DNA of 63,973 bases, counting the filler, from Stramenopiles sp. TOSAG23-6 (lineage: Eukaryota): assembly GCA_900128565.1 (NCBI GenBank). It is 3 parts of 3 records of this genome, joined end to end, with 100 filler letters (N's around TTAATTAATTAA, not from the genome) between each part and the next. Parts side by side here need not be neighbours in the genome. Positions count along the whole stretch, not along the records: positions 1 to 23,040 come from LT636010.1; 2 more parts are not named here. One strand, given 5' to 3'. This document shows positions 1,020-63,973 of this stretch, one piece after another. Each line of letters begins with the position of its first letter. Position 1 is the first letter of the stretch. The notes under the pieces are model-generated. The model was not told the DNA's origin. It ran no database searches and was given only the letters and a program-made list of their open reading frames with translations. Made by a program: the position numbers and the translations under genes.

Positions 1020-4000
1020 TTACTTTTTCTTTATTGGGATACATTCTTCTCTGATCCAATATTTTGGTGATATTTCTTTTGCAAATCTTGAAACTTTTGC
1101 AAAATTCCCATTTTCATCCTTTAACACAAAAGTCGCATAAAACTCCTCCCGAGCTCTCGTCAATGCAACAAAAGCTAACCTTCGTTCTTCCTGAACATGA
1201 GTTGTAGAAAAATATGTCATTTTGTTTTCATTTTTTAATTTTTTTTAATTTTTTTTAATCTTTTGTTACGAAAACAAATTTTAATTTAAAAAAAAAAAAA
1301 AAATTAAAAACAACTTAATTCGAAATTGAAAACGTACATCAGTAATTGTATTTTGCATTATATTCAAATCATCTGCAAGAGTTTCAATTGTCGCAAAATT
1401 ACGTTGTGGTACTTTCCAATGCATACCCCAACGAACTCCATTGGTAAGTGATGAACTCGCAACCTTTGCTGATTTATATGCATTTTGTATCGGTGTCAAG
1501 ATCTCTTCATGTTGCTCAATTAAGGGTATTATTCTTTCATTGAAACGCATTAGAAATACAACTGGCCATTCTAAACCCTTTGCTTGGTGAATAGTTGACA
1601 CTACGACAGCATCAGCTCTTGTTTTGATACCATGTTTACTATGCTTCTCCATTTGTCTTCTCTGTAATACTGACAGTATACATCGACGGAGATTTTCACT
1701 TCCTTTACTTTTATTTTCTGTATTTGTTTCAAATTTGAGATCGATTTCATAGGCTAAAATATCTTCTTTCAAAACTGAAATATTATGTCTTTTTGTTTGC
1801 TCTGTTTTTTTATTTATTCGTAAATAGTCTAAATATCCTGTTTGTTGTAGTATAAAATTAATAATTTCACTTGGTTTCATGTCCACAATTTCTTTACGAA
1901 TCTTTTTAATGTCTCGACAAAGATTTTTTAGAGATTTTTTTTGATCTGAATTTAATTTTGGTATTATATTTTCGTCCTCTCTAGAATTTTGTCCGTCATT
2001 TGCGGCAAGACAAAAGACTTCCCATGCAGAGAGTTCAGGATCTGACTGCCATATTTTTTGTAATTCCTTTCGAGTTTTATGTCGTATACCCGTTGTTTTA
2101 ATGCCAAGTACACGAAATAATGAACTATTAAAATCAGATTCGTCATGTGATGAAAAAGGATTTGTCTTTGAGAAAGAATTGTTCATTCTCATAGTGAGTA
2201 CATCACACCAAGCGAGAATATGGATTATGAAAAAATATTAAAAAAAAAAACCTAAATTTGTTAGGTACAAAATTTCGTACGAAAAAAAATCTAATTTCGA
2301 AATTGAAATGAAAACGTAAATCCTTTACTTCTGGTGTAGCATAAGCATCACCAGAGACATGCTCTGCCGTATTTAACGTAGGAATATTTAACTTTTTAAT
2401 TGCTACTTCGACCATTTTTGCTAGTCTTTTCGTTCGGGCTAAAACACAAATATCACGAAATCGCCTGCCTCGCTCTGACCAATGGTGCCGTATATTTGAT
2501 GCGATACGGGACACTTCATGATGAATATTTAAACATGGTAATAAATGTAATTTACTACCATTGGCGTTTGAAGTCCAAATATTCTTCTGTTCCCTGCCAA
2601 AAAACGCATAAATTGGAATCCTACTAGAATATCCTATATTTTCTATACTTTTATTATTTTCTATATTTTTATTTTTCATCAGAATTGGCCCATTTTTACT
2701 AGGGTTAGTGCTAACTAATTGTTGTAAAACTCCTGTTGAATCTTTAGAATCTTTAGAATGTTTAGAATGTTTAAGATCTTTAGAACATTTATAATCGTTA
2801 TGTTGAATAAGAGAAAATGCTGCTTTGACAATCGTTTTTGTTGATCTAAAATTTCGTTTTAGTGTTAATATTTGAGTGGTGGGGAAAATATCTTGAAATA
2901 AAACAAAAGCACGTGCAGAAGACCCACGAAAACTGTATATTTGTTGATCATCATCTCCAACCACCGTAATAGCAAGTGATTTTTCACATAATAGTTGTAT
3001 TAAATCAATTTGTTGTTGACTAGCATGTATTTTGGAAAAATATTTCAAAAAACAATTGTAAAAATCGTTAGGTATAAAATTTCGTACGAAACAAAAATCG
3101 AATTTGAAAAACAATAAAACATATATCTTGAAACTCATCTACTAAAAAGTGTGTGAATTTTTTTCTAATATTTTTTAATATAGTATTTGCATTCGTTTTG
3201 AGCAACATCAAACACATCGGAATAATATCAGCGAAATCAACTAAATTTTTTTCTTGGAGATTTTTTTCATACATTTTGTATATTTCAAAAAATTCACTAA
3301 CAGCAGCACCAGATTTTTGCTTTTCTTTTTTACCACTATCCAGGCTATATTGCAACGGCGTCAAACTATTGATATATTCCGAAACCAAGCACGGTCGGTG
3401 CAATCTTTGTTTACACATTTTGATAAATTTCATACAAATTCCCACAGATTTTTCTACTACGGGATCTTTTTGACTATTATTTTTTTCAGTTTTACATTCC
3501 GTACCAAATTCCGTACCATTTGATATTTCTGTGTCTACGAAATCTTTTTCAATTTGATCAACTTTATTCAAAATTCTTAGATTAGTACTATCTAATGCCT
3601 GTATTGCTCCAAAATTATCACTATGGTGTATTTTATATTGTTTATAACATTCTCTAATTATTTTTTTCTGCTCTTCGGGATTGACCACTTTTAGCTCATT
3701 GGATGACCTACAGCGACCCGTGGCACCAACGTTTCTTTTTAGAATGCGAAGGCAAAATCCATGGAAAGTACAAACCTGTAAAGTTCGAATTGATTCACTT
3801 CGAAATACTTGACTCACTCGTTCTCGTATTTCATTTGCGGCCTTGCGAGTAAATGTCACAACACATATATTTTCAGCTTTTATACCTGATTGAAGCATGT
3901 TGATGATACGACAAGTCAAAGTTAATGTTTTACCTGCACCAGCAGAAGCGATAATAGCTAGGGGTCGATCAAAGGAAGCAGTGACTGCCTTTCGCTGATC

Positions 4001-4648
4001 CTGTGTCAGGCGCGCCATATATTTCTTATCCGAGGAGGCTACCAAAGAACCCAAGAGTTGATTTGAAAAAAGATTGGCAACATTAAGAGGTTCAATCGAA
4101 GACGTTGGAGTTTCGATGTTGTTTTCGTTTTGTTTGTTTGCACATGTTGCAGAAGTTTTTGTGCTTGAAGAATGCGGGTTTGAATTCAACTTTGTGATAG
4201 GTTTGGCGGACTTTGGTGTTTTGTATGTTAATAAAGTACTATTTTGTTGATGAGAGTGTGAATTACCCCGATTGCTAAGAAAAGTGTCCCACATACTTAC
4301 ATTATTTGTTTTAGTAAATCTAGATCTTCTATTTGCATCACTAGAAATCTTTTTTGTTGTTGCTGGATTCAAAGTATTCTGATTGAGATCAGAACGATGC
4401 TTACTATCGGAACTTTGGCGGGGGACAGATGTTTTCAGCGATTTCGAGAGATGTGTCGACGAAGAGGAATATCCCCGCTTTCGTTGATCAAAACCTCTCA
4501 CACAACTACGATTTCTCTTCCTTCGAGACTTCAAGTCGTTCTTGATTTCATAAGGTCGTGGAGGCAGGACCTTTGGGCGAAACCAATTAAACTTGTTCGG
4601 CATTCCCAATAAAAACTTGCCAAATCTGAAATCTGAGATTGGGGCCAA
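1020..4648 (-). CDS. SF1A UvrD/PcrA/Srs2-type ATP-dependent DNA helicase; exons ~4648(ATG 4603)-3125, 3024-2320, 2219-1338, 1196-1020
   Basis: Motifs LTQDQ, ASAGAGKT, TFTRKAA, TFHGF, DEFQD, VGDDDQQIYSFRGS, L.RNFRS, EVKDILAW, STIHQAKGLEW and EERRLAFVALTRA are spread over four ORFs that fuse in frame when three repeat introns are removed. The start codon is uncertain. Confidence 0.92.
1197..1337 (-). other. Non-canonical intron copy 3, degenerate (GT..CAT, 141 nt, phase 0)
   Basis: ACT GAT|GTACGTTTTCAATTTCGAA..TTTTCGTAAC..CATATTTTTCTACAACTCAT|GTT CAG GAA GAA CGA; gives ITD|VQEERRL. Confidence 0.8.
2220..2319 (-). other. Non-canonical intron copy 4 (TT..CAT, 100 nt, phase 0)
   Basis: AAG GAT|TTACGTTTTCATTTCAATTTCG..TACCTAAC..TTTTTTCATAATCCAT|ATT CTC GCT TGG; restores UvrD motif EVKD|ILAW. 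Confidence 0.88.
3025..3124 (-). other. Non-canonical intron copy 5 (AT..CAT, 100 nt, phase 0)
   Basis: CAA GAT|ATATGTTTT..TACCTAAC..CCAAAATACAT|GCT AGT CAA; restores Walker B region DEFQD|ASQQQ. Confidence 0.88.
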
Positions 4649-4756
4649 GCTTTGTTCGAACGAGTCGCCCTGTGTCTGCTGCTGTCATTTTTTTTTGTTA
4701 TTTGGGATCTTGTTTTATTTTTTTGCAGTAAAAAGTTTGAAAATAAATTTATTTTA

Positions 4757-21764: not shown

Positions 21765-22957
21765 ATGCATATTTTAAAGTCCATCGCATTGTGTGCTGTG
21801 ATTACTTTGGTATCTGCCGCACCAGAGAGTGACTTTGTTGAATCATTACCTCTCTATGGTCCTCCGCCAACACCAATGTACAGTGGCTTCTTGAATGCGA
21901 CTTCGTCATCACCTGACCGTGGAGTCCGCTTGCACTACTGGTATGCGCAAAGCACTAAACTAAACCATAGATGGGCTCCTACTGTCCTTTGGTTAAATGG
22001 TGGACCAGGTAGTACGTCTATGTTGGGTATGCTTCAAGAGAATGGCCCGCTCTTAATCAACGCCACTGGCGGGTTGATGGACAATCCTTATGCCTGGACA
22101 AAGTACGCAAATATGCTATATCTAGAAAGCCCTTCTGGTGTTGGATTCAGTTACTGTCATTTATCAAGTGTTCCCGATTCTGACTGCAAAAACACAGATG
22201 TAACAACAGCTCGAGATGCTCGTATTGCTTTACAAGACTTTTTTACGAATAAATTTCCTGAATTGAGAGGAAATGAATTCTTTATTACAGGCGAGTCATA
22301 CGGTGGAGTGTATGTATTTTAGAATTTTTTTTCAATTTTGAATTTTTTTTTCGTACGAAATTTTGTACCTAACAAATTTTAGTTTTTTTTTTTAAATATT
22401 TTTCCAAAATACATGTCCCTACACTGGCTCGTGAAATTTTAGACAATGCTCCAGAAATTAATCTTAAAGGTGTTGCCGTTGGCGATCCCTGCACTGATAA
22501 TAAGGCTCAACAGGATTCAATGGACATGCTCTGGTATGCTCACAAACACGGTTTTGTTCCTGATGTACGTTTTCAAAATTGATTTTTTTTGAAACATTTT
22601 CATACAAAATGTTGTACCTAACAATTTGTTTTTCTAAAAAAAAATATATTTTTTCAAAATTTATGATGAGTTCGATTTATTATGGAATAAATGCCGCGCT
22701 CGTCACCCACCCCCACTTGTACTAGGTACGGTCAAAGGTAAAGGAAATGCAGATTCTCGAGGACGAATGCAAATGTCAGTCTGGAGTGAAGAATGCCTCA
22801 TTGCAAAACGAAAATACATGCTACAATCGTCCATGGCATTTTCACAAGTTTGGGATCATGCTTGGATCAATAATTTATCATTATATGGACCGGGATCTCC
22901 AGGTGATGTCTCTTTTGATCAACCAGGAAGTTTGAATTATATGACTTTACAATTTAT
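21765..22957 (+). CDS. Serine carboxypeptidase (peptidase S10), secreted, 3'-truncated by gap; exons 21765-22313, 22415-22564, 22665-22957
   Basis: Signal peptide, YSGFL, WLNGGPGSTS, NPYAW, LESPSGVGFSY, nucleophile motif GESYGGVY|VPTLA and NLKGVAVGDP. Confidence 0.93.
22314..22414 (+). other. Non-canonical intron copy 9 (GT..CAT, 101 nt, phase 0)
   Basis: GTG TAT|GTATTTTAG..TTTCGTACGAAATTTTGTACCTAAC..CCAAAATACAT|GTC CCT; restores GESYGGVY|VP. Confidence 0.9.
22565..22664 (+). other. Non-canonical intron copy 10 (GT..TAT, 100 nt, phase 0)
   Basis: CCT GAT|GTACGTTTT..TGTACCTAAC..TTTTCAAAATTTAT|GAT GAG TTC; gives HGFVPD|DEFDLLWNKC. Confidence 0.82.
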
Positions 22958-40179: not shown

Positions 40180-43100
40180 TCATAGCCACTCACCTGCAGC
40201 AAATTCTTCGTTGTCTGATGATGAAGATGAATCATCAATAGTATCTTCTATTGCGTTTACTTCATCGATTTGATTCACGCCGCTTGTCGGTGGTAGATCC
40301 GGTAAAGAAATTTCATTTTCGGTAGTGTTGTCTCGTTTCTTTCGGCGCTTTCTTCGACGATGAGATTTTGCTTGAGCTTCATCCTTAGCATTGCGAGTGT
40401 TCTCTTCGTGTGCTTGAAATTCCCCTANTGCNTCATTATGAAGAGTATCTGTANCATGTGTGGCCTGAGCTTGCTCCATGGCTTGCTCTCTACTTGCATG
40501 GTCCTTTAGTGCATCGCTTGCAAATGCATTTTCAGTTTGTTGTCTCTTCTTTTTGAGTTCTTCCCGTTGTTTTCTTTTCAATGCCTTTGCATCGTNATCA
40601 ACTGCACTCTTGCTTGTTTCGTTCATTGGAAACACTTTCTTGTTAGTTTTAGGATGAGAACCCATTGAAAACGCAGCTGGCATTACAGCCAAAGCTTTCG
40701 NATGAAGCTGAAAATCGAGTAACTCGTCATGGTGTTTATTAGATGGCTTTAAGAATTCTCGAACACGAGCTTTAATTGGTGGAATCATGAAGAAAAGAAC
40801 AATACCACCGTATGCAAAGCCAATAAGGTGTGCAGNCAGTAAAACANTTCCCAAATCNTCTGAAGNACTTTCTATGAGACCCCCCGATATCAAAATGTTC
40901 AAATAGAACGTGAAGAATGTTAGTGNCAATAANAGGANTTGGAGCGAATAATCTCCANCGCGTTTAAATGGATTAATANTTGCGCANANAATTACGAANG
41001 TCGCNGAAATTGCAACAGCCGCAGCATTTCGCTTTATGCCGACGGGAAATATTGTCAATAAACCAGTCATTGAAGCTTTACGGAACATCTCCACAAACTC
41101 AAACCACCAAACGTAGTGCTTATAATTAAGAAAGAGGGAACCGAATTNGTCTGTGTATCTCCTGTGGGTAGCTCTCATTTCATCACTATGCAGAAGNGCA
41201 TTATACATTCCATCATCCATGTCCTCTTCTGCAACAAGCCAATGTCGTACTCTATAAAGCAAAAAGAATCCAATTACTGGAATTCCTATCACATATGCGC
41301 ATATACATAATATTGCCACTGTTTGCATCATTTCATAATCTGAGCCTGCGCACTCAATGCTAATGTCAGCATAAAGATATCGCCTATCGTTAACTTGAAA
41401 GCAACTCAAAGCTCGGAAACACTTTACAGATAAGCCAGGGTACATTACGAATAAGATAGTACTCATTAAACGAGACGCATTCATTTGGGCGCTCTGTCGC
41501 GAAAACTTNGCTTTCTTGCCACACAGGCCTTTTAAGAGCATCGCCGTGACCAGTGCAAGAATAACCATTGCTATTAAAATGGGTAGTAAAGTCATGTGCC
41601 CGTAAAACTTATCGGAAAAGTCCGAAGAAAATTCACAGGGGTTAAGGATGGTAAATAACTTGGTATAATCCAAATTGATAANACTCAAACTTTCAGTAAA
41701 TTCTTCAAACTTCTTTGGTTGGGGCTCGCCCGAAGTGTGTTTCAATTGTGATGTTACCTGAANGAAACTGATAATTAGTTTCAAAGTAGCTTGCATCTCA
41801 GCAATATCCTGTGCCTTNTTCTCTTCTTTTATTGTTTTTAATTTGCCACCCTTCTTCTGTTTGCCGTGAAGACGACGTCGATTTTTCCTCTTCATTTTTT
41901 CTTCGTGTGTTAAAGCTCTATGAGCCTTACTCATTTGTTTNTGAAGACTTCTAATCGCCTTCTTATGTCCTCCNTTATTTGAAGTTAATTCCGTGATTCT
42001 CTGATTAAATGAACTATGCTTCTTTGNAATTGCAAGTCGTTTTTGATTAGCTTGCAAATCTTTTAGACCCAACTTTCCTTGTGGTGTAACTTTAGCTGCT
42101 CCAATNCCAGGTTTCCCAAATAACATAGCAGCACCCATTGCGGNGTTTAATTTGGCTACCTTTTGAAGCCGTTTCTTAACAGCTCGTCNCTTTTTTGCTC
42201 GTTCATCATTGTATATTTTTGGATCTGCTTTTGAAACCATTGTGACAACAAGAAGAATGTATGTCAATGCAGCCATTATCAAAGATAATGTAACTTGTCC
42301 CGATCCAGATCCCTGGGTAGTAGTACAGTCGATACAAAATGTAGCATCACCGGGTATCCACTCACTTAATGGAGGGCAGCCAACACGCCATTTTTCTGTA
42401 CATTTATATTCACAATTTTCTTCTTTATCATCGCTAGTACACCTAACCAAACACAACTCGTATTTCTTTTGTGAACAACAATTACTACAAAGTTGACCGG
42501 TGTGGCCTTCACGGCAGTTACGACCAGATAAGCTTGGAAATGGTCTATCAACACCTCCTAGGCAGATATCTTTCGCAAGGTACTTTGGTGTCACATAGAA
42601 TTCACAATCAAATGGGGCAAATGCGCTCGGGTTTTCCAAGAAGAATTCTCTCTCCTGCCAAAATCCAGGCTTTAATTCCACTTCCCTAGTGACATCTTCT
42701 GTAAACAAAGCCAACCCATTGGTACAATGGTTTTTTGCTGTTGTGTTGCTGCATGATGTTACAGTTTCTATTGCATCATCACAGGTACACTTTGTTCCTG
42801 CTGGACACTTGACACATTGAATAGCAAATGTTTCCATATCGCTCAAAAGTTCGACTCTNAGTTTCGAAGTGGAATTGATTTGGTGGGAGACAGAATACTT
42901 AGCAAGAAGATTTTTCTCCAAATAAACCAGGTCGTCGGAATTTGTTGCCGTTGTATTGTTTGCTGTCGAAGATGAATCTTCACAGGATGANAAATTGGCA
43001 GTATTTGTAGCAGTATCGTCAGCACTTGGTTGTACCAAATGTCCAAAGTAACTAGCAGGGCACTCACATCGACTGTGACTATTATCCGCCAGTGCTAAGC

Positions 43101-45882
43101 TTCCTGGGCAAGTGGTAGCAACAAATGATCCAGCAGCACANAACTCATTTCCNGTACAAGCTGTAATTGTCGTTGGTGTTGGGCATACTGAATCTGAAGG
43201 ACATATACTTGCTGCGTACGAACCTTCGCCACAATACGATGCAAGTCCATCAGAACGTTCTTTGCAATTAGTTATTGTCTTTGAGTCTNCACAAAATGAT
43301 CCTGCTGGACACTTAGGAGGACTTGTTCTTGGATCATCTCCAGTATTAATCGTAGGATATGTTCCAGTACCTGATGGACAGTAGTACGATACGCTGTATA
43401 GGATAGTATTGTCTTTCACATCTACTTGAGTATGAGGTGTCGACGAATCATTAAATGTGAGTGTTTTGCTATTTACCGTAGTTATGGTTCCCAAAAATTC
43501 GAATACACCTGATGAATTTTTAATATAAACATTATCGCCCCTATTATCAAAACCTTCGCCAGTAAGTTTGGTTGTCGCGTCAATGCCCTTCACTGTAATA
43601 GATTTCGAACCAGCACGAAATTTTCCATCGGATAATGATGACGCATCTACAATTATTCCTGTATTACCATTTACCACTGGAAAAGTTTTATCTTTGATTT
43701 CATCCCCCATAGGATTATCACANCTGTATTTGAACTTTCCTTCTTCACAGTAATACCCATCGGGGCACCTCGTAGGATTTTTACTATTAAGCGGGCATAA
43801 CCATGCCGTGACTGAATTTTGTAATCCTGCATCAGGCATATTCGTGTCCCAAACACATGATTTTTTCAAAGTCGAATTAGTACAGTAATATCCTAGAGGA
43901 CACTTGTTTTTTTCAAAGGATCCATCTGGACAGTATGTTCCATCATTGGGACATGTAACCTTTGTAGTTGCTCCTTTTTCACAATAATTACCTGCTGGAC
44001 AATATGCAACATTCGNTGATATTGTACCTANAGGACAGTAATAAGCTTTANTTAATTTGTCTGTGATNGGGGGATNCATTGATGNATCACCTGTAGCAGT
44101 TACCTTNATTGCCTCNGGTTTCCCGTCCTGAGGTGTATAATTGATAATATCCCCAACTTTGTACCCCTTGCCTCTATCAGTTGGACATAATGTGAATGAA
44201 ATAATCCCATCGTTATTAATTACAGCATCAACTTTTGCCCCAGTACCATNTCCCGTTGAAGTTGTTGGCAATCTCGATAATGTTCCCTTTTGATATGTAT
44301 TTTGCTTTCCGTCTGTTTGTAAAGTAATTTCAGCNANGTTAGTATCAATTTCNGAACAAGAGTATTTGAACTTCCCANATACACAATAATACCCTACAGG
44401 GCATTTTACNGGATTTGTTGTNTTTTCAGGACAAAACCATGCNGTACTAGAATTTTCCAGAGCCGATATAGGATTNCTCTCATAAACACAAGANTTCTGT
44501 TGAGTTGAATTTGTACAATAATGTCCAAGCTCACAGTCAAGAGATGCAAATGACCCTTCTGGGCAATATAAACCAGNGATGTCNCATGCATTTGTTGTAG
44601 CTGCTCCTTTTGGGCAATATTGGCCNATTGCACACACCGTTGGCATCTTACTTCCTCTGGGGCAANAATAGGCCTTTGTNACNTTATNAGTAACTTTATT
44701 TGTCACGTCTCCAATATCAGTTATTGTAATTATTTTAGGTTGATCGCCTCCAATCTGAGAAGAATCTAACTTGACCGTATCCGATATTTTGTAGCCACTA
44801 CCTCGGTATTCCATATTTACTTGTATATCAGTAATTTTCCCTCCTTGAACAACGACATCGAATGAGGCACCACTTCCCGTAGAATTAACCCCAGTTGAAG
44901 CAACTGCTACATATGCACCATTTTTGAAACCAGTAGAAATTTTTGCATAACTAATAAGAGCTACATTAGAGTCATCGTCTGAACATGAATATACAAATTT
45001 TCCCTCTTCACAATATTTTCCACTTGGGCACTGTAATGGACTTTTACTTCCACTTGGACAGTAAAAACCGGTACTTGAGCTACCACCAAAATTAGCAAGA
45101 ATGCTTCCCCCAGAGGTCCACAAACATGAATGTTTTTCAGTTGGATTTGGACAGAAAAATCCATGGGGACATTTTTCGGCAGTACTACTCCCCTCAGGAC
45201 AGTAATAGCCAATGGTATAATCTGAAATATGGTCGTTCGGGTCTCCGATTCGATCTATAGTTACATTTATAGTAGTTGACCCTGATATTATTANCCTGAG
45301 TTGATTACCTGATATATACCCTGAGCCTCTATTATCATCGTTTACATTTACTTTTGTTATTTTTCCAGCTGAAACAGTCACATCAAATCTAGCATCTTTG
45401 CCATTTCCAGTTAAAGTCTCAGAAACCTTATTACTATATACACCGTCACTAATACCTGGTACATCGAGATTCGCATCTGCAGCTGTACTAACATTGCCAA
45501 CCGTTGTATCGTCATCACTACTATTACTACAACTATACCTATACTGACCCTTTTCACAATAGTATCCAGCTGCGCATTTATTCATTCCTTGTTCTCCCTC
45601 TCTGCAATAATGCGCATAGTAGTTCAGCCCCCCAGAAACTACGGAACCAGAGGGATCAAATGGATGATCTGACCATGTGCCCTTCAAGTTATTTGGTATC
45701 CCCTCAGCTTCACATGAAATCTTGTTAGTTCGCGCAGGATACCAGTATCCCGAAGCATTGTTGCAGGCACTTTCCGTTGATAAATCTCCTGAAAGTTCAT
45801 GGTTTTCAGGGTTCGAGATAAAATAAAAAAATGGATCAAATAAATTTGGACCTATAGGTGGATATTTCGAGCAATATGCTTT
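40180..45882 (-). CDS. 5'-truncated large Cys-rich (CPxGxYC repeat) cell-surface protein with multi-pass TM C-terminus
   Basis: Frame appears open to the gap. Many C.xG.YCP.G repeats, GHTGQLCSNC, about 7 hydrophobic segments, FGSLF.NYK..WWFE.VEM.RK. Many N ambiguities. Confidence 0.8.
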   Translation of the reverse strand, partial: KAYCSKYPPIGPNLFDPFFYFISNPENHELSGDLSTESACNNASGYWYPARTNKISCEAEGIPNNLKGTWSDHPFDPSGSVVSGGLNYYAHYCREGEQGMNKCAAGYYCEKGQYRYSCSNSSDDDTTVGNVSTAADANLDVPGISDGVYSNKVSETLTGNGKDARFDVTVSAGKITKVNVNDDNRGSGYISGNQLRXIISGSTTINVTIDRIGDPNDHISDYTIGYYCPEGSSTAEKCPHGFFCPNPTEKHSCLWTSGGSILANFGGSSSTGFYCPSGSKSPLQCPSGKYCEEGKFVYSCSDDDSNVALISYAKISTGFKNGAYVAVASTGVNSTGSGASFDVVVQGGKITDIQVNMEYRGSGYKISDTVKLDSSQIGGDQPKIITITDIGDVTNKVTXXXTKAYXCPRGSKMPTVCAXGQYCPKGAATTNAXDIXGLYCPEGSFASLDCELGHYCTNSTQQXSCVYEXNPISALENSSXAWFCPEXTTNXVKCPVGYYCVXGKFKYSCXEIDTNXAEITLQTDGKQNTYQKGTLSRLPTTSTGXGTGAKVDAVINNDGIISFTLCPTDRGKGYKVGDIINYTPQDGKXEAXKVTATGDXSMXPXITDKLXKAYYCPXGTISXNVAYCPAGNYCEKGATTKVTCPNDGTYCPDGSFEKNKCPLGYYCTNSTLKKSCVWDTNMPDAGLQNSVTAWLCPLNSKNPTRCPDGYYCEEGKFKYXCDNPMGDEIKDKTFPVVNGNTGIIVDASSLSDGKFRAGSKSITVKGIDATTKLTGEGFDNRGDNVYIKNSSGVFEFLGTITTVNSKTLTFNDSSTPHTQVDVKDNTILYSVSYYCPSGTGTYPTINTGDDPRTSPPKCPAGSFCXDSKTITNCKERSDGLASYCGEGSYAASICPSDSVCPTPTTITACXGNEXCAAGSFVATTCPGSLALADNSHSRCECPASYFGHLVQPSADDTATNTANXSSCEDSSSTANNTTATNSDDLVYLEKNLLAKYSVSHQINSTSKXRVELLSDMETFAIQCVKCPAGTKCTCDDAIETVTSCSNTTAKNHCTNGLALFTEDVTREVELKPGFWQEREFFLENPSAFAPFDCEFYVTPKYLAKDICLGGVDRPFPSLSGRNCREGHTGQLCSNCCSQKKYELCLVRCTSDDKEENCEYKCTEKWRVGCPPLSEWIPGDATFCIDCTTTQGSGSGQVTLSLIMAALTYILLVVTMVSKADPKIYNDERAKKXRAVKKRLQKVAKLNXAMGAAMLFGKPXIGAAKVTPQGKLGLKDLQANQKRLAIXKKHSSFNQRITELTSNXGGHKKAIRSLXKQMSKAHRALTHEEKMKRKNRRRLHGKQKKGGKLKTIKEEXKAQDIAEMQATLKLIISFXQVTSQLKHTSGEPQPKKFEEFTESLSXINLDYTKLFTILNPCEFSSDFSDKFYGHMTLLPILIAMVILALVTAMLLKGLCGKKXKFSRQSAQMNASRLMSTILFVMYPGLSVKCFRALSCFQVNDRRYLYADISIECAGSDYEMMQTVAILCICAYVIGIPVIGFFLLYRVRHWLVAEEDMDDGMYNXLLHSDEMRATHRRYTDXFGSLFLNYKHYVWWFEFVEMFRKASMTGLLTIFPVGIKRNAAAVAIXAXFVIXCAXINPFKRXGDYSLQXXLLXLTFFTFYLNILISGGLIESXSXDLGXVLLXAHLIGFAYGGIVLFFMIPPIKARVREFLKPSNKHHDELLDFQLHXKALAVMPAAFSMGSHPKTNKKVFPMNETSKSAVDXDAKALKRKQREELKKKRQQTENAFASDALKDHASREQAMEQAQATHXTDTLHNXAXGEFQAHEENTRNAKDEAQAKSHRRRKRRKKRDNTTENEISLPDLPPTSGVNQIDEVNAIEDTIDDSSSSSDNEEFAAGEWL

Positions 45883-45982
45883 NNNNNNNNNNNNNNNNNN
45901 NNNNNNNNNNNNNNNNNNNNNNNNNNTTAATTAATTAANNNNNNNNNNNNNNNNNNNNNNNNNNNNNNNNNNNNNNNNNNNN
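45883..45982. other. Assembly gap with TTAATTAATTAA linker
   Basis: N-run with central TTAATTAATTAA. Confidence 0.97.
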
Positions 45983-46038
45983 AATTTTGTACCTAACAAA
46001 TTTAAGTTTTTTTTTTGAAATATTTTTCCAAAATACAT
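45983..46038 (+). other. Non-canonical intron copy 13 (3' part, ..CAT, phase 1)
   Basis: AATTTTGTACCTAAC..GAAATATTTTTCCAAAATACAT|TA CTT GGT GGA directly after the gap. Confidence 0.85.
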
Positions 46039-46736
46039 TACTTGGTGGAATAGTCACTACGAGACAGAATCGTCTAGATGAACTCGTTCCTCTTCGGTAC
46101 GAATATGTATATACACTAAAAGAAGATTTTCCTCATTTGGATATTGAACTTAATGGTGGTGTCAAAACTATGAATGATATAAAAAAGCATATAAATAATG
46201 GAGTAGATGGTGTAATGATGGGTCGACTTGCACGTGATGATCCGTTCTTCTTTTCAAAAGTGGACTCTGATTTTTTTGGATTAGAAGATAAATTTGCTAA
46301 TGTAACACCATTAGAATCTCGGTATTTAGTTTTAGAAGAATACGCAAAATATGCATCTCAAGAACAATTAGAAAGAGGGAAATTTACGTCTCGTGAAATG
46401 CTTTTAAAACCTTTGAATCAACTTTTTGAAGGTTTACCGGTTGAAAAGAAAATATTTGCATCTTTTCTTCGAACTCCTGAAAAAAATAAAAGACCAGAAT
46501 TATTTGGCGATGAGATTCTAGCTGCTGTAGAAGCAATGAGAAATACAAAGTGTTCTTCCAGCTCTTCTACTATAGAAGCAATGAGAAATACACAGTTTTC
46601 TTCTACCTCTCCGACACCCCTACTGAGATATACACCAAAGAAAAAGGTACAGTGTTATCATTCAAAGAATTCAAATAATCCAAATAATTCAAAGACAACT
46701 TATAAAAAATATCGAAAGAAATTCTATAGAAAATAG
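46039..46736 (+). CDS. dusA: tRNA-dihydrouridine synthase, DusA-type, last exon (5' part lost in gap)
   Basis: NR...VPLRYEYVYTLKEDFPHLDIELNGGV, VDGVMMGRLARDDP, LLKPL..LF.G match the DusA C-terminal half. Confidence 0.8.
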
Positions 46737-62253: not shown

Positions 62254-63917
62254 TCATCCGAACTCTCGAATTAAAAATTCCTCATAAAATTGTCGAACGT
62301 CAGCAAGCATTTTACCAGCAGATTCTTCATTATAATTCGGTGCGAGTATATGTATTTTGGAAAAATATTAAAAAAAATATATCGTTAGGTACAAAATTTC
62401 GTACGAAAAAAAATTTCGAATTTGAAAAAAAGTAAAACATACATTCGGAATCCAATGTGCATTAGATACTTCAATTCGAAGAAAATACAAACCCGTAGGA
62501 TGAAGCAACTGTTTAAATGCTGAGTGCTCTATTTCATTTTTTACACACTCAACATCATCCCATTTATACGAGAGATCTACTTCAAGGTCTAAATATTGTC
62601 TAATCTCAATTTCAAATTTACGAGCCAATTGGAGAGTCATTTGTCTTTGAGAATTTATATCATCAGTGGAAGAGATTTCAAAATTCTGTGAGTTCTGCTT
62701 AATCGTTTCAACGGATTTTTCATTTTCAATAAAAGTCACACTATCAGTAGTTTGTTTTATTGTTTGTGTTTTCGCAGTTGTTGTACTTTTGTTCGAATAG
62801 AACGAAAATGAAAATCGAATATGAGCCAAAAATGGATATTTTTTTTTCGCCGCTGCGCTTCCAGAAGATGTGTTAGGATTGTTTGAAGACAAAGACACTA
62901 CACCTGATAGTGCTAATGGCGAATCTGCTTTTGAATACTCTGGAAATTGTAGTATATTTAATCCTTGAGCAGCAGCACATCTATATAATTTCTTCATATA
63001 ATCTGCAATTTGACCACAGGACGCGGCTAGCCACTGAACCTCTAAATGGAAGCATTTGTCATAAAAAAATTGGGAATCCATTTTTAGTAAAAGCCATTCA
63101 TACCTAAAATATGGCCCAGATGAATCATTCGCACCTTTTGTAGATTTATCACTATTTAAAGCATTAATCTTACTATTTGAACTTGAACTAGAAAACGATT
63201 TCGACCGCAAAGGAATTTTTAAAAGTCGCGATTGTTTGTCTCCTGTCCAAAGTTCAGTTGGCGAAGGGGTCCATCCCATAATAGTTTGATAAAACTGTGA
63301 AAATCTGTCATTTGCTTTCTTTACAAAATTCGCTAGTTGTACCGCCTCGTTTGCGATTTCATTTGCCTTATGAGCAGCTACTGCAGCATTCTGAGCAATT
63401 GTAATAGGAATGTCAAATATAGACGAAGAAGATTCAATATTTCGTTTTGAATCATCTATTTTTACTGTATTTGTAGTTTGATTTACATTGTTCTTTGTTC
63501 TATACCGGCTAACAGGAATTATAGCATGATGCTGTCTCATTGTGCGCTTCCTCTCTTGAATTGTAACATCCCAATTTTCCCATTGTCCTGAAACAATTTC
63601 ATCTATATAAGTCCAATTTGTGTCCTCTGCACTATCCTCCTTAAAATAAGTGTTATATGCAACATATGAATGTATTTTGGAAAAATATTTCAAAAAAAAA
63701 AAACTAAGATTTGTTAGGTACAAAATTTCGTATGAAAAAAAAAATTGAAAAAAAATAAAACATACATTTACACAAGGAGACCAAATATTATAGGAATAAG
63801 GGACAGACTCTATAAAATCTTCTTTCGTCTTTAGGGTATAAATAGCACCACGAAGTTTACTTGGAATTTCTGATGAATCATAAATTAATTGTTGAATCCG
63901 TTTCCCAGTGGAGACCC
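62254..63917 (-). CDS. DEPDC5: DEPDC5/Iml1 (GATOR1/SEACIT subunit) C-terminal part; exons 63917-63766, 63669-62443, 62349-62254; 5' part beyond window
   Basis: W.S.G.RIQ.L.YD, NWTYIDEIVSG, YEW......F....FHLEVQWLAAS..I......R.A...GL.I..FP, LLHPTGLYF..I....WIPN resemble the Iml1/DEPDC5 C-terminal domains. Confidence 0.75.
62350..62442 (-). other. Non-canonical intron copy 14 (GT..CAT, 93 nt, phase 0)
   Basis: CCG AAT|GTATGTTTT..TTTCGTACGAAATTTTGTACCTAAC..CCAAAATACAT|ATA CTC GCA. Confidence 0.85.
63670..63765 (-). other. Non-canonical intron copy 15 (GT..CAT, 96 nt, phase 0)
   Basis: GTA AAT|GTATGTTTT..TTTCATACGAAATTTTGTACCTAAC..CCAAAATACAT|TCA TAT; joins two open frames. Confidence 0.87.
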
Positions 63918-63973
63918 AAGTATTTTGGAAAAATATTTCAAAAAAAAAAAACTTAAATTTGTTAGGTACAAAA
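63918..63973 (-). other. Non-canonical intron copy 16 (3' part, ends ..AAAATACTT, phase 1)
   Basis: TTTGTACCTAAC..GAAATATTTTTCCAAAATACTT|GG GTC TCC; 5' end is outside the window. Confidence 0.78.

What the first reader, a model, noticed from the sequence alone, without database searches (positions are those of the whole stretch)
2220..3124. First intron base is relaxed (TT.. and AT.. donors) while +2 to +6 TAYGT is kept
Seen: among 14 visible 5' ends, 12 begin GT. Copy 4 begins TTACGT and copy 5 begins ATATGT, both inside essential helicase motifs. TAYGT at +2..+6 is kept in 13 of 14, and the exon -1 base is T in 14 of 14. Established: the first and last intron nucleotides interact (G-G, or A-C in AT-AC introns), and +4..+6 pair with the U6 ACAGAGA box. 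Inference: once the terminal G became U, the constraint on +1 was lost. This predicts changes in Prp8, U2AF35 (AG recognition), U1 or U5 loop 1, which would now read an exon-terminal U.
Basis: partly seen in the sequence, partly recalled or inferred. Interest (0 to 1): 0.75.

Follow-up and report, generated by a model that had tools for sequence, protein, structure and literature searches.

The report
Repeat introns that lack first G
Two copies of a short, mobile-looking intron inside a DNA-helicase gene of a marine protist begin with T or A instead of the near-universal G, and the gene only makes sense if they are still cut out, but no RNA data could be obtained to prove it.

Summary
The window holds 14 family introns with a visible 5' end. 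At +1, 12 have G, one T (base 2319) and one A (base 3124). Exon -1 is T in 14 of 14, TAYGT is kept in 13 of 14, and the last two bases are AT in 13 of 13 complete copies.

Both odd copies lie in one UvrD/PcrA-like helicase gene. Removing exactly 100 bases at each restores ungapped alignment to homologues.

Because the exon ends AT and the intron ends AT, three cut registers give the same mRNA. "First base" therefore holds only in the GT...AT register.

+1 varies about as much as an average family column. A dead gene or sequencing errors fit poorly.

I obtained no RNA or read evidence. Splicing of these two copies is therefore inferred, confidence about 0.5.

The invariant exon T is better explained by an AT duplication of a mobile element than by U5 reading. 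The claim that +1 became free because the last G became U is untested. Yeast prp18 data suggest G+1 pairs with U-1.

The scan had already found this GT...AT family on other DNA of the same genome.

The parts
3125..4018 (-). Helicase exon 1, counted from the ATG used by the public model. The frame is open upstream to 4684. It ends in motif II ...FLVDEFQD.
   Evidence: PF00580 profile positions 1-224, E 2e-48. Translation.
3025..3124 (-). Family intron 'copy 5', 100 bases, ATATGT...ATACAT. It has A at +1 (base 3124) in the GT...AT register.
   Evidence: Removing it restores DEFQD|ASQQQ with the same 20-residue spacing to VVGDDD as in the homologues.
2320..3024 (-). Helicase exon 2, 235 codons.
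   Evidence: PF00580 positions 225-270 and PF13361 positions 7-116. 100% identical to part of public model P0014.
2220..2319 (-). Family intron 'copy 4', 100 bases, TTACGT...ATCCAT. It has T at +1 (base 2319). Its 25-base core matches the family pattern exactly.
   Evidence: Removing it joins EVKD|ILAW, which aligns without a gap to E[VI][KR]D|hxxY of the homologues.
1338..2219 (-). Helicase exon 3, containing TIHQAKGLEWP.
   Evidence: PF13361, E 8e-13. Translation.
1212..1337 (-). Third, more diverged family intron of the same gene, GTACGT...ACATAT, 126 bases.
   Evidence: Ending the intron two bases earlier gives a stop after 12 codons. Ending at 1212 restores EERRLAFVALTRAR.
1020..1211 (-). 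Helicase exon 4 with motif VI and the stop codon.

Best explanation
Bases 2319 and 3124 are true point variants (G to T, G to A) at the first position of two copies of a roughly 100-base, transposon-like spliceosomal intron family. The family normally reads AT|GTAYGTTTT ... TACCTAAC ... YAT|.

Both copies sit in one intact UvrD/PcrA-like helicase gene. They are most likely still removed from the mRNA as the same 100-base unit as their G-starting relatives.

In this lineage the cut sites seem to be set mainly by the retained +2..+9 bases, the branch-like TACCTAAC and the conserved 3' motif ending YAT. The identity of the first base is then only weakly constrained, and splicing may be less efficient in a gene that tolerates that.

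Shown: the sequence pattern, the family membership, and the exact length that must be removed. Inferred: that removal happens, its efficiency, and the GT...AT register.
For: - Family and counts.
- Frames: in all 13 complete copies, removing the GT...AT unit keeps an open frame. For 11 of them one search shows this directly. 22314 needs the second GTAT as donor to keep GESYGGVY|VPTLA. 62442 gives 31 codons against 25 and 5 in the other frames.
- Copy 5 junction: PF00580 stops at profile position 224 at the end of exon 1 and resumes at 225 at the second residue of exon 2.
- Copy 5 junction: there is no gap at the junction in 14 of 14 shown homologues and 12 of 12 further ones.
- Copy 4 junction: there is no gap at EVKD|ILAW in 14 of 14 homologues and 11 of 12 (the twelfth lacks the region).
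- Retention breaks the protein: it gives stops after 18 and 38 codons.
- Gene intact: 1112 open codons.
- Against a dead gene: if the gene were decaying, the chance of a second specific +1 hit with no stop arising is at most about 0.002-0.003.
- +1 variability: 2 variants, which is ordinary for the family. 158 of 1108 cells are non-consensus, and 40 of 86 columns have 2 or more variants.
- Consistent with neutrality: P(2 or more of 14 changed) is 0.15-0.42 for 5-10% divergence.
- Ancestry: the nearest copies of both variants begin with G.
Against: - There is no RNA or read evidence at all. The read-laying tool gave nothing.
- No spliced fragment of this gene was found among proteins of 30-128, 129-412 or 413-2000 residues.
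- No close relative was found in metagenome contigs (best 43% identity), and the intron core was not found there or in viral contigs.
- Homology fixes the removed length but not the register. For copy 5 a slide of +1 scores 151.5 bits against 148.3 for the family register. For copy 4 the top eight of 798 candidates all score 58.9-59.6.
- Both variants lie in one gene that holds 3 of the 14 introns. By my own arithmetic the chance that two random variants share a gene is about 0.1, which hints at something gene-specific.
- The sample is 14 copies with two events.
- The helicase has no close orthologue: only its own public model reaches E 1e-30 among 1.84 billion representatives. Purifying selection therefore cannot be measured.
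- G at +1 is needed for both catalytic steps in model organisms (my own recall).
Confidence: 0.5

Rival explanations
1. The helicase gene is a null or weak allele. The +1 changes abolish or cripple splicing, and the gene is a very recent pseudogene or a dispensable gene in the sampled cells.
For: Both variants fall in one gene. The gene has no close orthologue and looks like a divergent bacterial-type PcrA, so it may be dispensable. G+1 mutations block splicing in model systems (my own recall).
Against: The gene has 1112 open codons and all helicase motifs intact. The chance of a second neutral hit on one specific base before any stop arises is at most about 0.0026, and that figure does not count indels. 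Both variant introns keep the family core and 3' motif.
Confidence: 0.22
2. The introns are removed at other cut points than the family register. For copy 4 this could be the in-frame cryptic donor GTAAAG nine bases upstream, which loses VKD. For copy 5 it could be the -2 register, ATATAT...ATAC, an AT-AC pair that gives the same mRNA.
For: GAA|GTAAAG lies 9 bases upstream of 2319 and is in frame. Shifts of 0, -1 and -2 give one product for copy 5. U2-type AT-AC introns are known (PMC1557818, passages read).
Against: The VKD that would be lost aligns with the near-invariant [VI][KR]D of the homologues. GTAAAG matches the lineage's GTAYGT at only 3 of 6 positions. In the -2 register TAYGT would move to +4..+8, out of line with the other 12 copies. 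Copies 12048 and 33794 lack A at -2, so AT-AC cannot be the family rule.
Confidence: 0.1
3. Excision is guided by pairing of the intron's inverted ends, as proposed for Amoebophrya introners. End identity then matters less than end complementarity.
For: The first 10 and last 10 bases pair at 8 of 10 positions in 8 of 13 copies and at 9 of 10 in one more. +1/-1 is G:U in 11 copies and becomes A-U in copy 5. Amoebophrya introners have 8-20-base inverted repeats and 3-5-base direct repeats at their borders (PMC7789003, passages read).
Against: There is no compensatory change. The GTACGT subfamily breaks pair 4 without any repair. Copy 4 pairs at only 5 of 10 positions and its T+1 faces T. The family keeps a strong classical 5' site and a branch-like motif.
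Confidence: 0.08
4. The family is handled by a divergent minor (U12-type) spliceosome. There, A or G at +1 and AT at the 3' end are both known.
For: GT-AT (7) and AT-AT (12) borders are catalogued among U12-type introns, and AT-AN and GT-AT can splice (PMC1557818, passages read). Copy 5 begins ATAT.
Against: +2..+8 match TATCCTT at only 4-5 of 7 positions. The branch-like A lies 33-54 bases from the 3' end rather than about 10-20. T-rich tails are present. T at +1 (copy 4) is not a U12 feature. No U11, U12, U4atac or U6atac is found in the window, which is weak evidence for 64 kb.
Confidence: 0.05
5. One or both bases are amplification or assembly errors.
For: The window carries 243 N, and many single ambiguous residues lie in the ORF at 40180-45930. 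Base quality is therefore uneven in places.
Against: There is no N in or near the helicase gene. Two random errors landing on 2 of the 14 +1 positions in 64 kb is very improbable (my own arithmetic). Earlier notes report similar AT- and GG-starting copies elsewhere in this genome (unchecked by me).
Confidence: 0.05

Closest known systems
Introner elements: transposon-derived spliceosomal introns of Micromonas, Aureococcus, dinoflagellates and others (PMC12130899, passages read; PMC11282704, search listing only)
   Same: Many near-identical copies of about 100 bases lie in unrelated genes of one genome. A short duplication (here AT) sits at the borders. The ends are inverted repeats. One strand is used relative to the host gene.
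   Different: The 3' end is YAT, not YAG. Some copies lack G at +1. No transposase or source element was seen here.
HAU 3' splice sites used by yeast lacking Prp18 (PMC10711555; abstract, passages and discussion read)
   Same: CAU and UAU are the non-G 3' sites used best. Upstream U tracts help. The authors propose that U-1 pairs with G+1.
   Different: In yeast these are minor alternative sites in a mutant. Here YAT would be the regular end of a whole family, and two copies lack the G that the yeast model uses.
Non-canonical U12-type introns, GT-AT and AT-AT (PMC1557818, passages and table read)
   Same: The same terminal dinucleotide pairs occur, and A and G interchange at +1 between species.
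   Different: The U12 5' site TATCCTT and the short branch-to-3' distance are not met. T at +1 is not known there.
Non-canonical introner elements of Amoebophrya (PMC7789003, passages read) and non-GT/AG introns of Fritillaria borealis (10.1101/2025.08.15.670264, abstract read)
   Same: The introns are repeat-derived, have non-GT/AG borders, and carry direct repeats that blur the exact border.
   Different: Those lineages show no fixed border motif. Here GTAYGT, TACCTAAC and YAT are strongly kept, and only +1 wavers.

Membership tests
U2-type (major) spliceosomal intron | 5' site GTRNGT-like, paired by U1 and U6 | tested here: met
   GTAYGT in 11 of 14 copies. TAYGT at +2..+6 in 13 of 14, including both variants.
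U2-type (major) spliceosomal intron | G at +1 | tested here: not met
   The two flagged copies have T (2319) and A (3124). The other 12 have G.
U2-type (major) spliceosomal intron | Branch site similar to TACTAAC upstream of a pyrimidine-rich tail | tested here: met
   TACCTAAC in 12 of 13 complete copies. The branch-like A lies 33-54 bases from the 3' end. The tail is about 50-59% T in 11 of 13.
U2-type (major) spliceosomal intron | 3' end YAG | tested here: not met
   The last three bases are YAT in 13 of 13. Six copies skip an internal AG.
U2-type (major) spliceosomal intron | Removal from RNA through a lariat | not testable with these tools
   No reads could be laid and no transcripts were found.
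U12-type (minor) intron | 5' site RTATCCTT | tested here: not met
   4-5 of 7 matches at +2..+8 in all 13 copies.
U12-type (minor) intron | Branch site TCCTTAAC within about 10-20 bases of the 3' end | tested here: not met
   The motif is TACCTAAC, 33-54 bases from the 3' end. The family thresholds are from my own recall.
Introner (mobile intron) family | Many near-identical copies in unrelated genes | tested here: met
   14 copies with 5' ends plus 2 more 3' ends, in at least 8 genes of a 64-kb window. Nearest-copy identity is 88-91%.
Introner (mobile intron) family | Target-site duplication and terminal inverted repeats | tested here: met
   Exon AT in 12 of 14 mirrors intron-final AT in 13 of 13; P about 3e-11 against a background AT frequency of 0.091. 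The ends pair at 8 or more of 10 positions in 9 of 13 copies.
Introner (mobile intron) family | Presence/absence polymorphism or an autonomous source element | not tested
   No genome is held and no relatives were found in the collections.
UvrD/PcrA/Rep helicase (the host gene) | N-terminal and C-terminal UvrD domains with motifs I-VI | tested here: met
   PF00580 E 2e-48, PF13361, PF13245. AGAGKT, DEFQD, VVGDDDQ, TIHQAKGLEW and VALTRAR are seen.

The most novel reading that the evidence does not exclude
In this marine stramenopile lineage the major spliceosome no longer reads either terminal G of an intron. A whole mobile intron family ends in U, and copies beginning with A or even U are still spliced. 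Both 'invariant' end nucleotides of spliceosomal introns are then dispensable when +2..+9, the branch site and a 3' motif are strong. The change may be tied to altered second-step factors such as Prp18, Slu7 or Prp8.
Probability: 0.3. Interest if true: 0.85.

Novelty: new variant of a known kind. Interest (0 to 1): 0.5.

Why it matters
G at the first intron position and G at the last are the most conserved letters in eukaryotic gene structure, and their contact is part of the model of exon ligation.

A natural lineage in which the last G is regularly U, and the first G can be A or U, would be a ready-made test of that model. It would also test the yeast Prp18 fidelity work.

It would further show how mobile introns can spread without supplying canonical ends.

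There is a practical consequence too. Public gene models force GT-AG here and mis-translate these genes: model P0014 reads into both introns.

Tried and rejected
- Reads. The run search listed three RNA runs (shares 0.17, 0.10, 0.09) and independent DNA runs (0.63, 0.50). Laying failed three times: once on short pieces between N, once on a filter, which was counted, and then on the cap. Read support for 2319 and 3124 and any splice joints therefore remain unchecked. The small shares are not evidence of expression.
- Whole genome: none is held. No Prp8, U2AF, Slu7, Prp18 or snRNA survey was possible, and no genome-wide +1/-1 table.
- Rfam on the window: 0 matches at gathering score. At E up to 1 there was only a weak snoRNA-like hit.
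- Intron core pattern: 0 loci in metagenome contigs and 0 in viral contigs.
- Helicase exon 2 as a protein query. Metagenome contigs gave 6 loci at 43% identity or less. The protein collection near, longer and shorter searches gave only the public model at 100%, with all other hits at 50% or less. Among 1.84 billion representatives only the self model reached E 1e-30 or better. No orthologue and no spliced fragment was found.
- Scoring all in-frame donor/acceptor pairs within 36 bases against a homologue profile. This fixes the removed length for copy 5 but not the register, and does not discriminate for copy 4.
- End-pairing covariation: none.
- Earlier-findings look-ups by words and by sequence returned nothing.
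- Literature. Searches for GT-AT introns, and for introner with non-canonical splice with stramenopile, found no description of such a family in stramenopiles. A paper on MAST single-cell genomes has 0 occurrences of 'splice' in its main text (passages only; supplements not opened). Chanfreau 1994 (PMC308110) is not held.

Full report
WHAT IS THERE

The window is gene-dense eukaryotic DNA of about 30-42% G+C with very long open frames. A public protein 100% identical to part of the region carries a source's name that points to a marine stramenopile, MAST. Earlier notes of this scan describe the same genome in that way.

A 25-base core, TCGTACGAAATTTTGTACCTAACAA, occurs 12 times with up to 3 mismatches, against 0 expected. 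A 5'-end scan adds two more diverged copies.

Together there are 14 family introns with a visible 5' end. Two further copies show only their 3' part: one is cut by N near 46000 and one by the window end.

The family reads AT|GTAYGTTTT ... TCGTACGAAATTTTGTACCTAAC ... AAATATTTTTCCAAAATACAT| and is 86-126 bases long.

THE OBSERVATION

The counts are:
- +1 is G in 12/14, T once (base 2319) and A once (base 3124).
- Exon -1 is T in 14/14 and exon -2 is A in 12/14.
- +2 T, +3 A, +6 T and +7 T are each 14/14.
- +5 G is 13/14, so TAYGT is kept in 13/14. The exception is 22314, GTATTT.
- The last two bases are AT in 13/13 complete copies.

THE HOST GENE AND THE JUNCTIONS

Copies 4 and 5, and a third more diverged copy (1212-1337), lie in one minus-strand gene for a UvrD/PcrA/Rep-type helicase. 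The Pfam matches are PF00580 (E 2e-48), PF13361 and PF13245.

With the three units removed the frame is open for 1112 codons. It carries AGAGKT, DEFQD, VVGDDDQ, TIHQAKGLEWP and EERRLAFVALTRAR.

At copy 5, the Pfam profile stops at position 224 at the end of exon 1 and resumes at 225 at the second residue of exon 2. DEFQD|ASQQQIDLIQLLCEKSLAITVVGDDD has the same 20-residue spacing as in 14 of 14 shown PcrA-like homologues. In 12 further homologues there is no gap at the junction; one has an insertion further on.

At copy 4, ATPEVKD|ILAWCDVL aligns without a gap to xRKE[VI]KD|[VI]xxYLRL in 14 of 14 homologues and in 11 of 12. The twelfth lacks the region.

Retaining either intron gives a stop after 18 or 38 codons. 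The protein therefore needs exactly 100 bases removed at each place.

The public gene model instead reads into both introns. It gives DEFQD-ICFIVFQIRFF-QQQ and a read-through tail after EVKD.

LIMITS OF THE JUNCTION EVIDENCE

I scored all in-frame, stop-free donor/acceptor pairs within 36 bases of each end against a profile of 74 homologues.

For copy 5 there were 926 distinct products. The best eight all remove 100 bases. The family register scores 148.3 bits and a slide of +1 scores 151.5.

For copy 4 there were 798 products. The top eight all score 58.9-59.6.

Homology thus fixes the length but not the exact cut. The exon ends AT and the intron ends AT, so shifts of 0, -1 and -2 give one and the same mRNA.

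In chemical terms copy 5 could be AT...AT, TA...CA or AT...AC. Copy 4 could be TT...AT, TT...CA or AT...CC.

The GT...AT register is chosen for two reasons. It puts the yeast-like GTAYGT at +1..+6 in all copies. And copies 12048 (exon ...CT) and 33794 (exon ...GT) do not allow the -2 shift. cDNA could never separate shift 0 from shift -1; only lariat data could.

IS +1 RELAXED?

In an alignment of the 13 complete copies, 86 columns are well occupied. Of these, 27 never vary, 19 vary once and 40 vary twice or more. Overall, 158 of 1108 cells are non-consensus.

With 2 variants, +1 is an ordinary column, while +2, +3, +6 and +7 are invariant.

The nearest relatives of the two variants begin with G: 33794 at 78/86 identity and 62442 at 81/92 identity. 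The variants are therefore substitutions, G to T and G to A.

If +1 were neutral at 5-10% divergence, two or more changes among 14 copies would be expected with probability 0.15-0.42. This fits a weakly constrained +1.

With 14 young copies, however, it cannot exclude a moderate constraint. 12/14 G is also what inheritance alone gives.

DEAD GENE OR ERROR?

The open frame offers about 141-172 stop-creating substitutions per unit divergence. The chance that a decaying gene takes a second hit on one specific base before any stop appears is therefore at most about 0.002-0.003, before counting indels.

Two random base errors on two of 14 +1 positions in 64 kb are far less likely still (my own arithmetic).

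Some points count against my reading. Both variants sit in one gene, and by my own arithmetic the chance of that for two random variants is about 0.1. The gene has no close orthologue, so selection cannot be measured. A tolerated weak allele in a dispensable gene remains a real possibility.

WHAT SETS THE ENDS?

Exon AT in 12/14 mirrors the terminal AT in 13/13. Against an AT frequency of 0.091 in seven long ORFs, this has a chance of about 3e-11.

The first and last ten intron bases pair at 8 or more of 10 positions in 9 of 13 copies.

This is the signature of a mobile element with a two-base duplication and inverted ends. Earlier notes on other windows came to the same view. It explains the invariant exon T without any change in U5.

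There is no compensatory change in the end pairing. The GTACGT subfamily breaks pair 4, and copy 4 pairs at only 5 of 10 positions. A required end helix is therefore not supported.

One detail is interesting: +1/-1 is G:U in 11 copies, becomes A-U in copy 5, and becomes U/U in copy 4.

COMPARISON WITH WHAT IS KNOWN

Yeast without Prp18. These cells use non-YAG 3' sites. CAU and UAU are the best non-G sites, U tracts help, and the authors propose a U-1/G+1 pair (PMC10711555; abstract, passages and discussion read). This is the closest mechanistic parallel for a YAT end. It argues that G+1 would still be useful rather than free.

U12-type introns. GT-AT and AT-AT borders and A/G switching at +1 are known (PMC1557818, passages and table read). 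The family fails the U12 5' site, with 4-5 of 7 matches. It also fails the branch-to-3' distance, at 33-54 bases.

Amoebophrya introners. They share border repeats and inverted ends but have no fixed border motif (PMC7789003, passages read).

Fritillaria. It shows that U2AF paralogues and snRNA modification can retune the border rules (10.1101/2025.08.15.670264, abstract read).

I found no paper describing a GT...AT family, or non-G starts in one, in stramenopiles.

WHAT COULD NOT BE DONE

Read support and RNA joints could not be checked. The spliceosome parts list could not be examined because no genome is held and the window contains no snRNA. A genome-wide table could not be built.

VERDICT

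The reading that +1 is weakly constrained is the best available explanation (about 0.5) but rests on gene integrity and small counts, not on RNA. The proposed cause, and the U5 idea for the exon T, are not supported by anything found here.

Noticed in passing
window 2203-4018, minus strand: The public gene model P0014 (100% identical over exon 2) forces other borders. It reads 11 intron-coded residues after DEFQD. It also reads through the second intron to a stop, losing the C-terminal half of the helicase.
   Followed up: yes
window 1212-1337, minus strand: In the third, diverged intron of the helicase the frame is restored only if the cut is after ...ACATAT, two bases beyond the family's usual ACAT. 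Equivalently, the unit could start two bases earlier, as AT...AT.
   Followed up: partly
window 22310-22414, plus strand: A tandem GTATGTAT lies at the 5' end of an intron in a serine-carboxypeptidase-like gene. Keeping GESYGGVY|VPTLA needs the second GT, giving a GTATTT donor. This is the one copy without TAYGT.
   Followed up: partly
window 63915-63973, minus strand: A family 3' part at the window edge reads ...CCAAAATACTT before the exon instead of ...ATACAT. This may be a variant at the next-to-last base. The 5' exon lies outside the window, so the cut cannot be placed.
   Followed up: no
window 45983-46039, plus strand: A further family copy whose 5' part is lost in a run of N. It ends ...CCAAAATACAT, just before the Dus-domain (dihydrouridine synthase-like) coding sequence.
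   Followed up: no
the 13 complete family introns (list): Six of the 13 contain an AG between the branch-like motif and the YAT end. That AG must be skipped to keep the frame.
   Followed up: partly
window 40180-45930, minus strand: A 1916-codon ORF carries many single ambiguous bases (X in the translation). Base calls are therefore uneven in parts of this assembly.
   Followed up: no
window 1020-4684, minus strand: The helicase is an orphan within its family. Among 1.84 billion representative proteins only its own public model reaches E 1e-30. The next best hits are about 38-42% identical over some 80 residues, and the hits that a source names are called bacterial PcrA-like helicases.
   Followed up: partly
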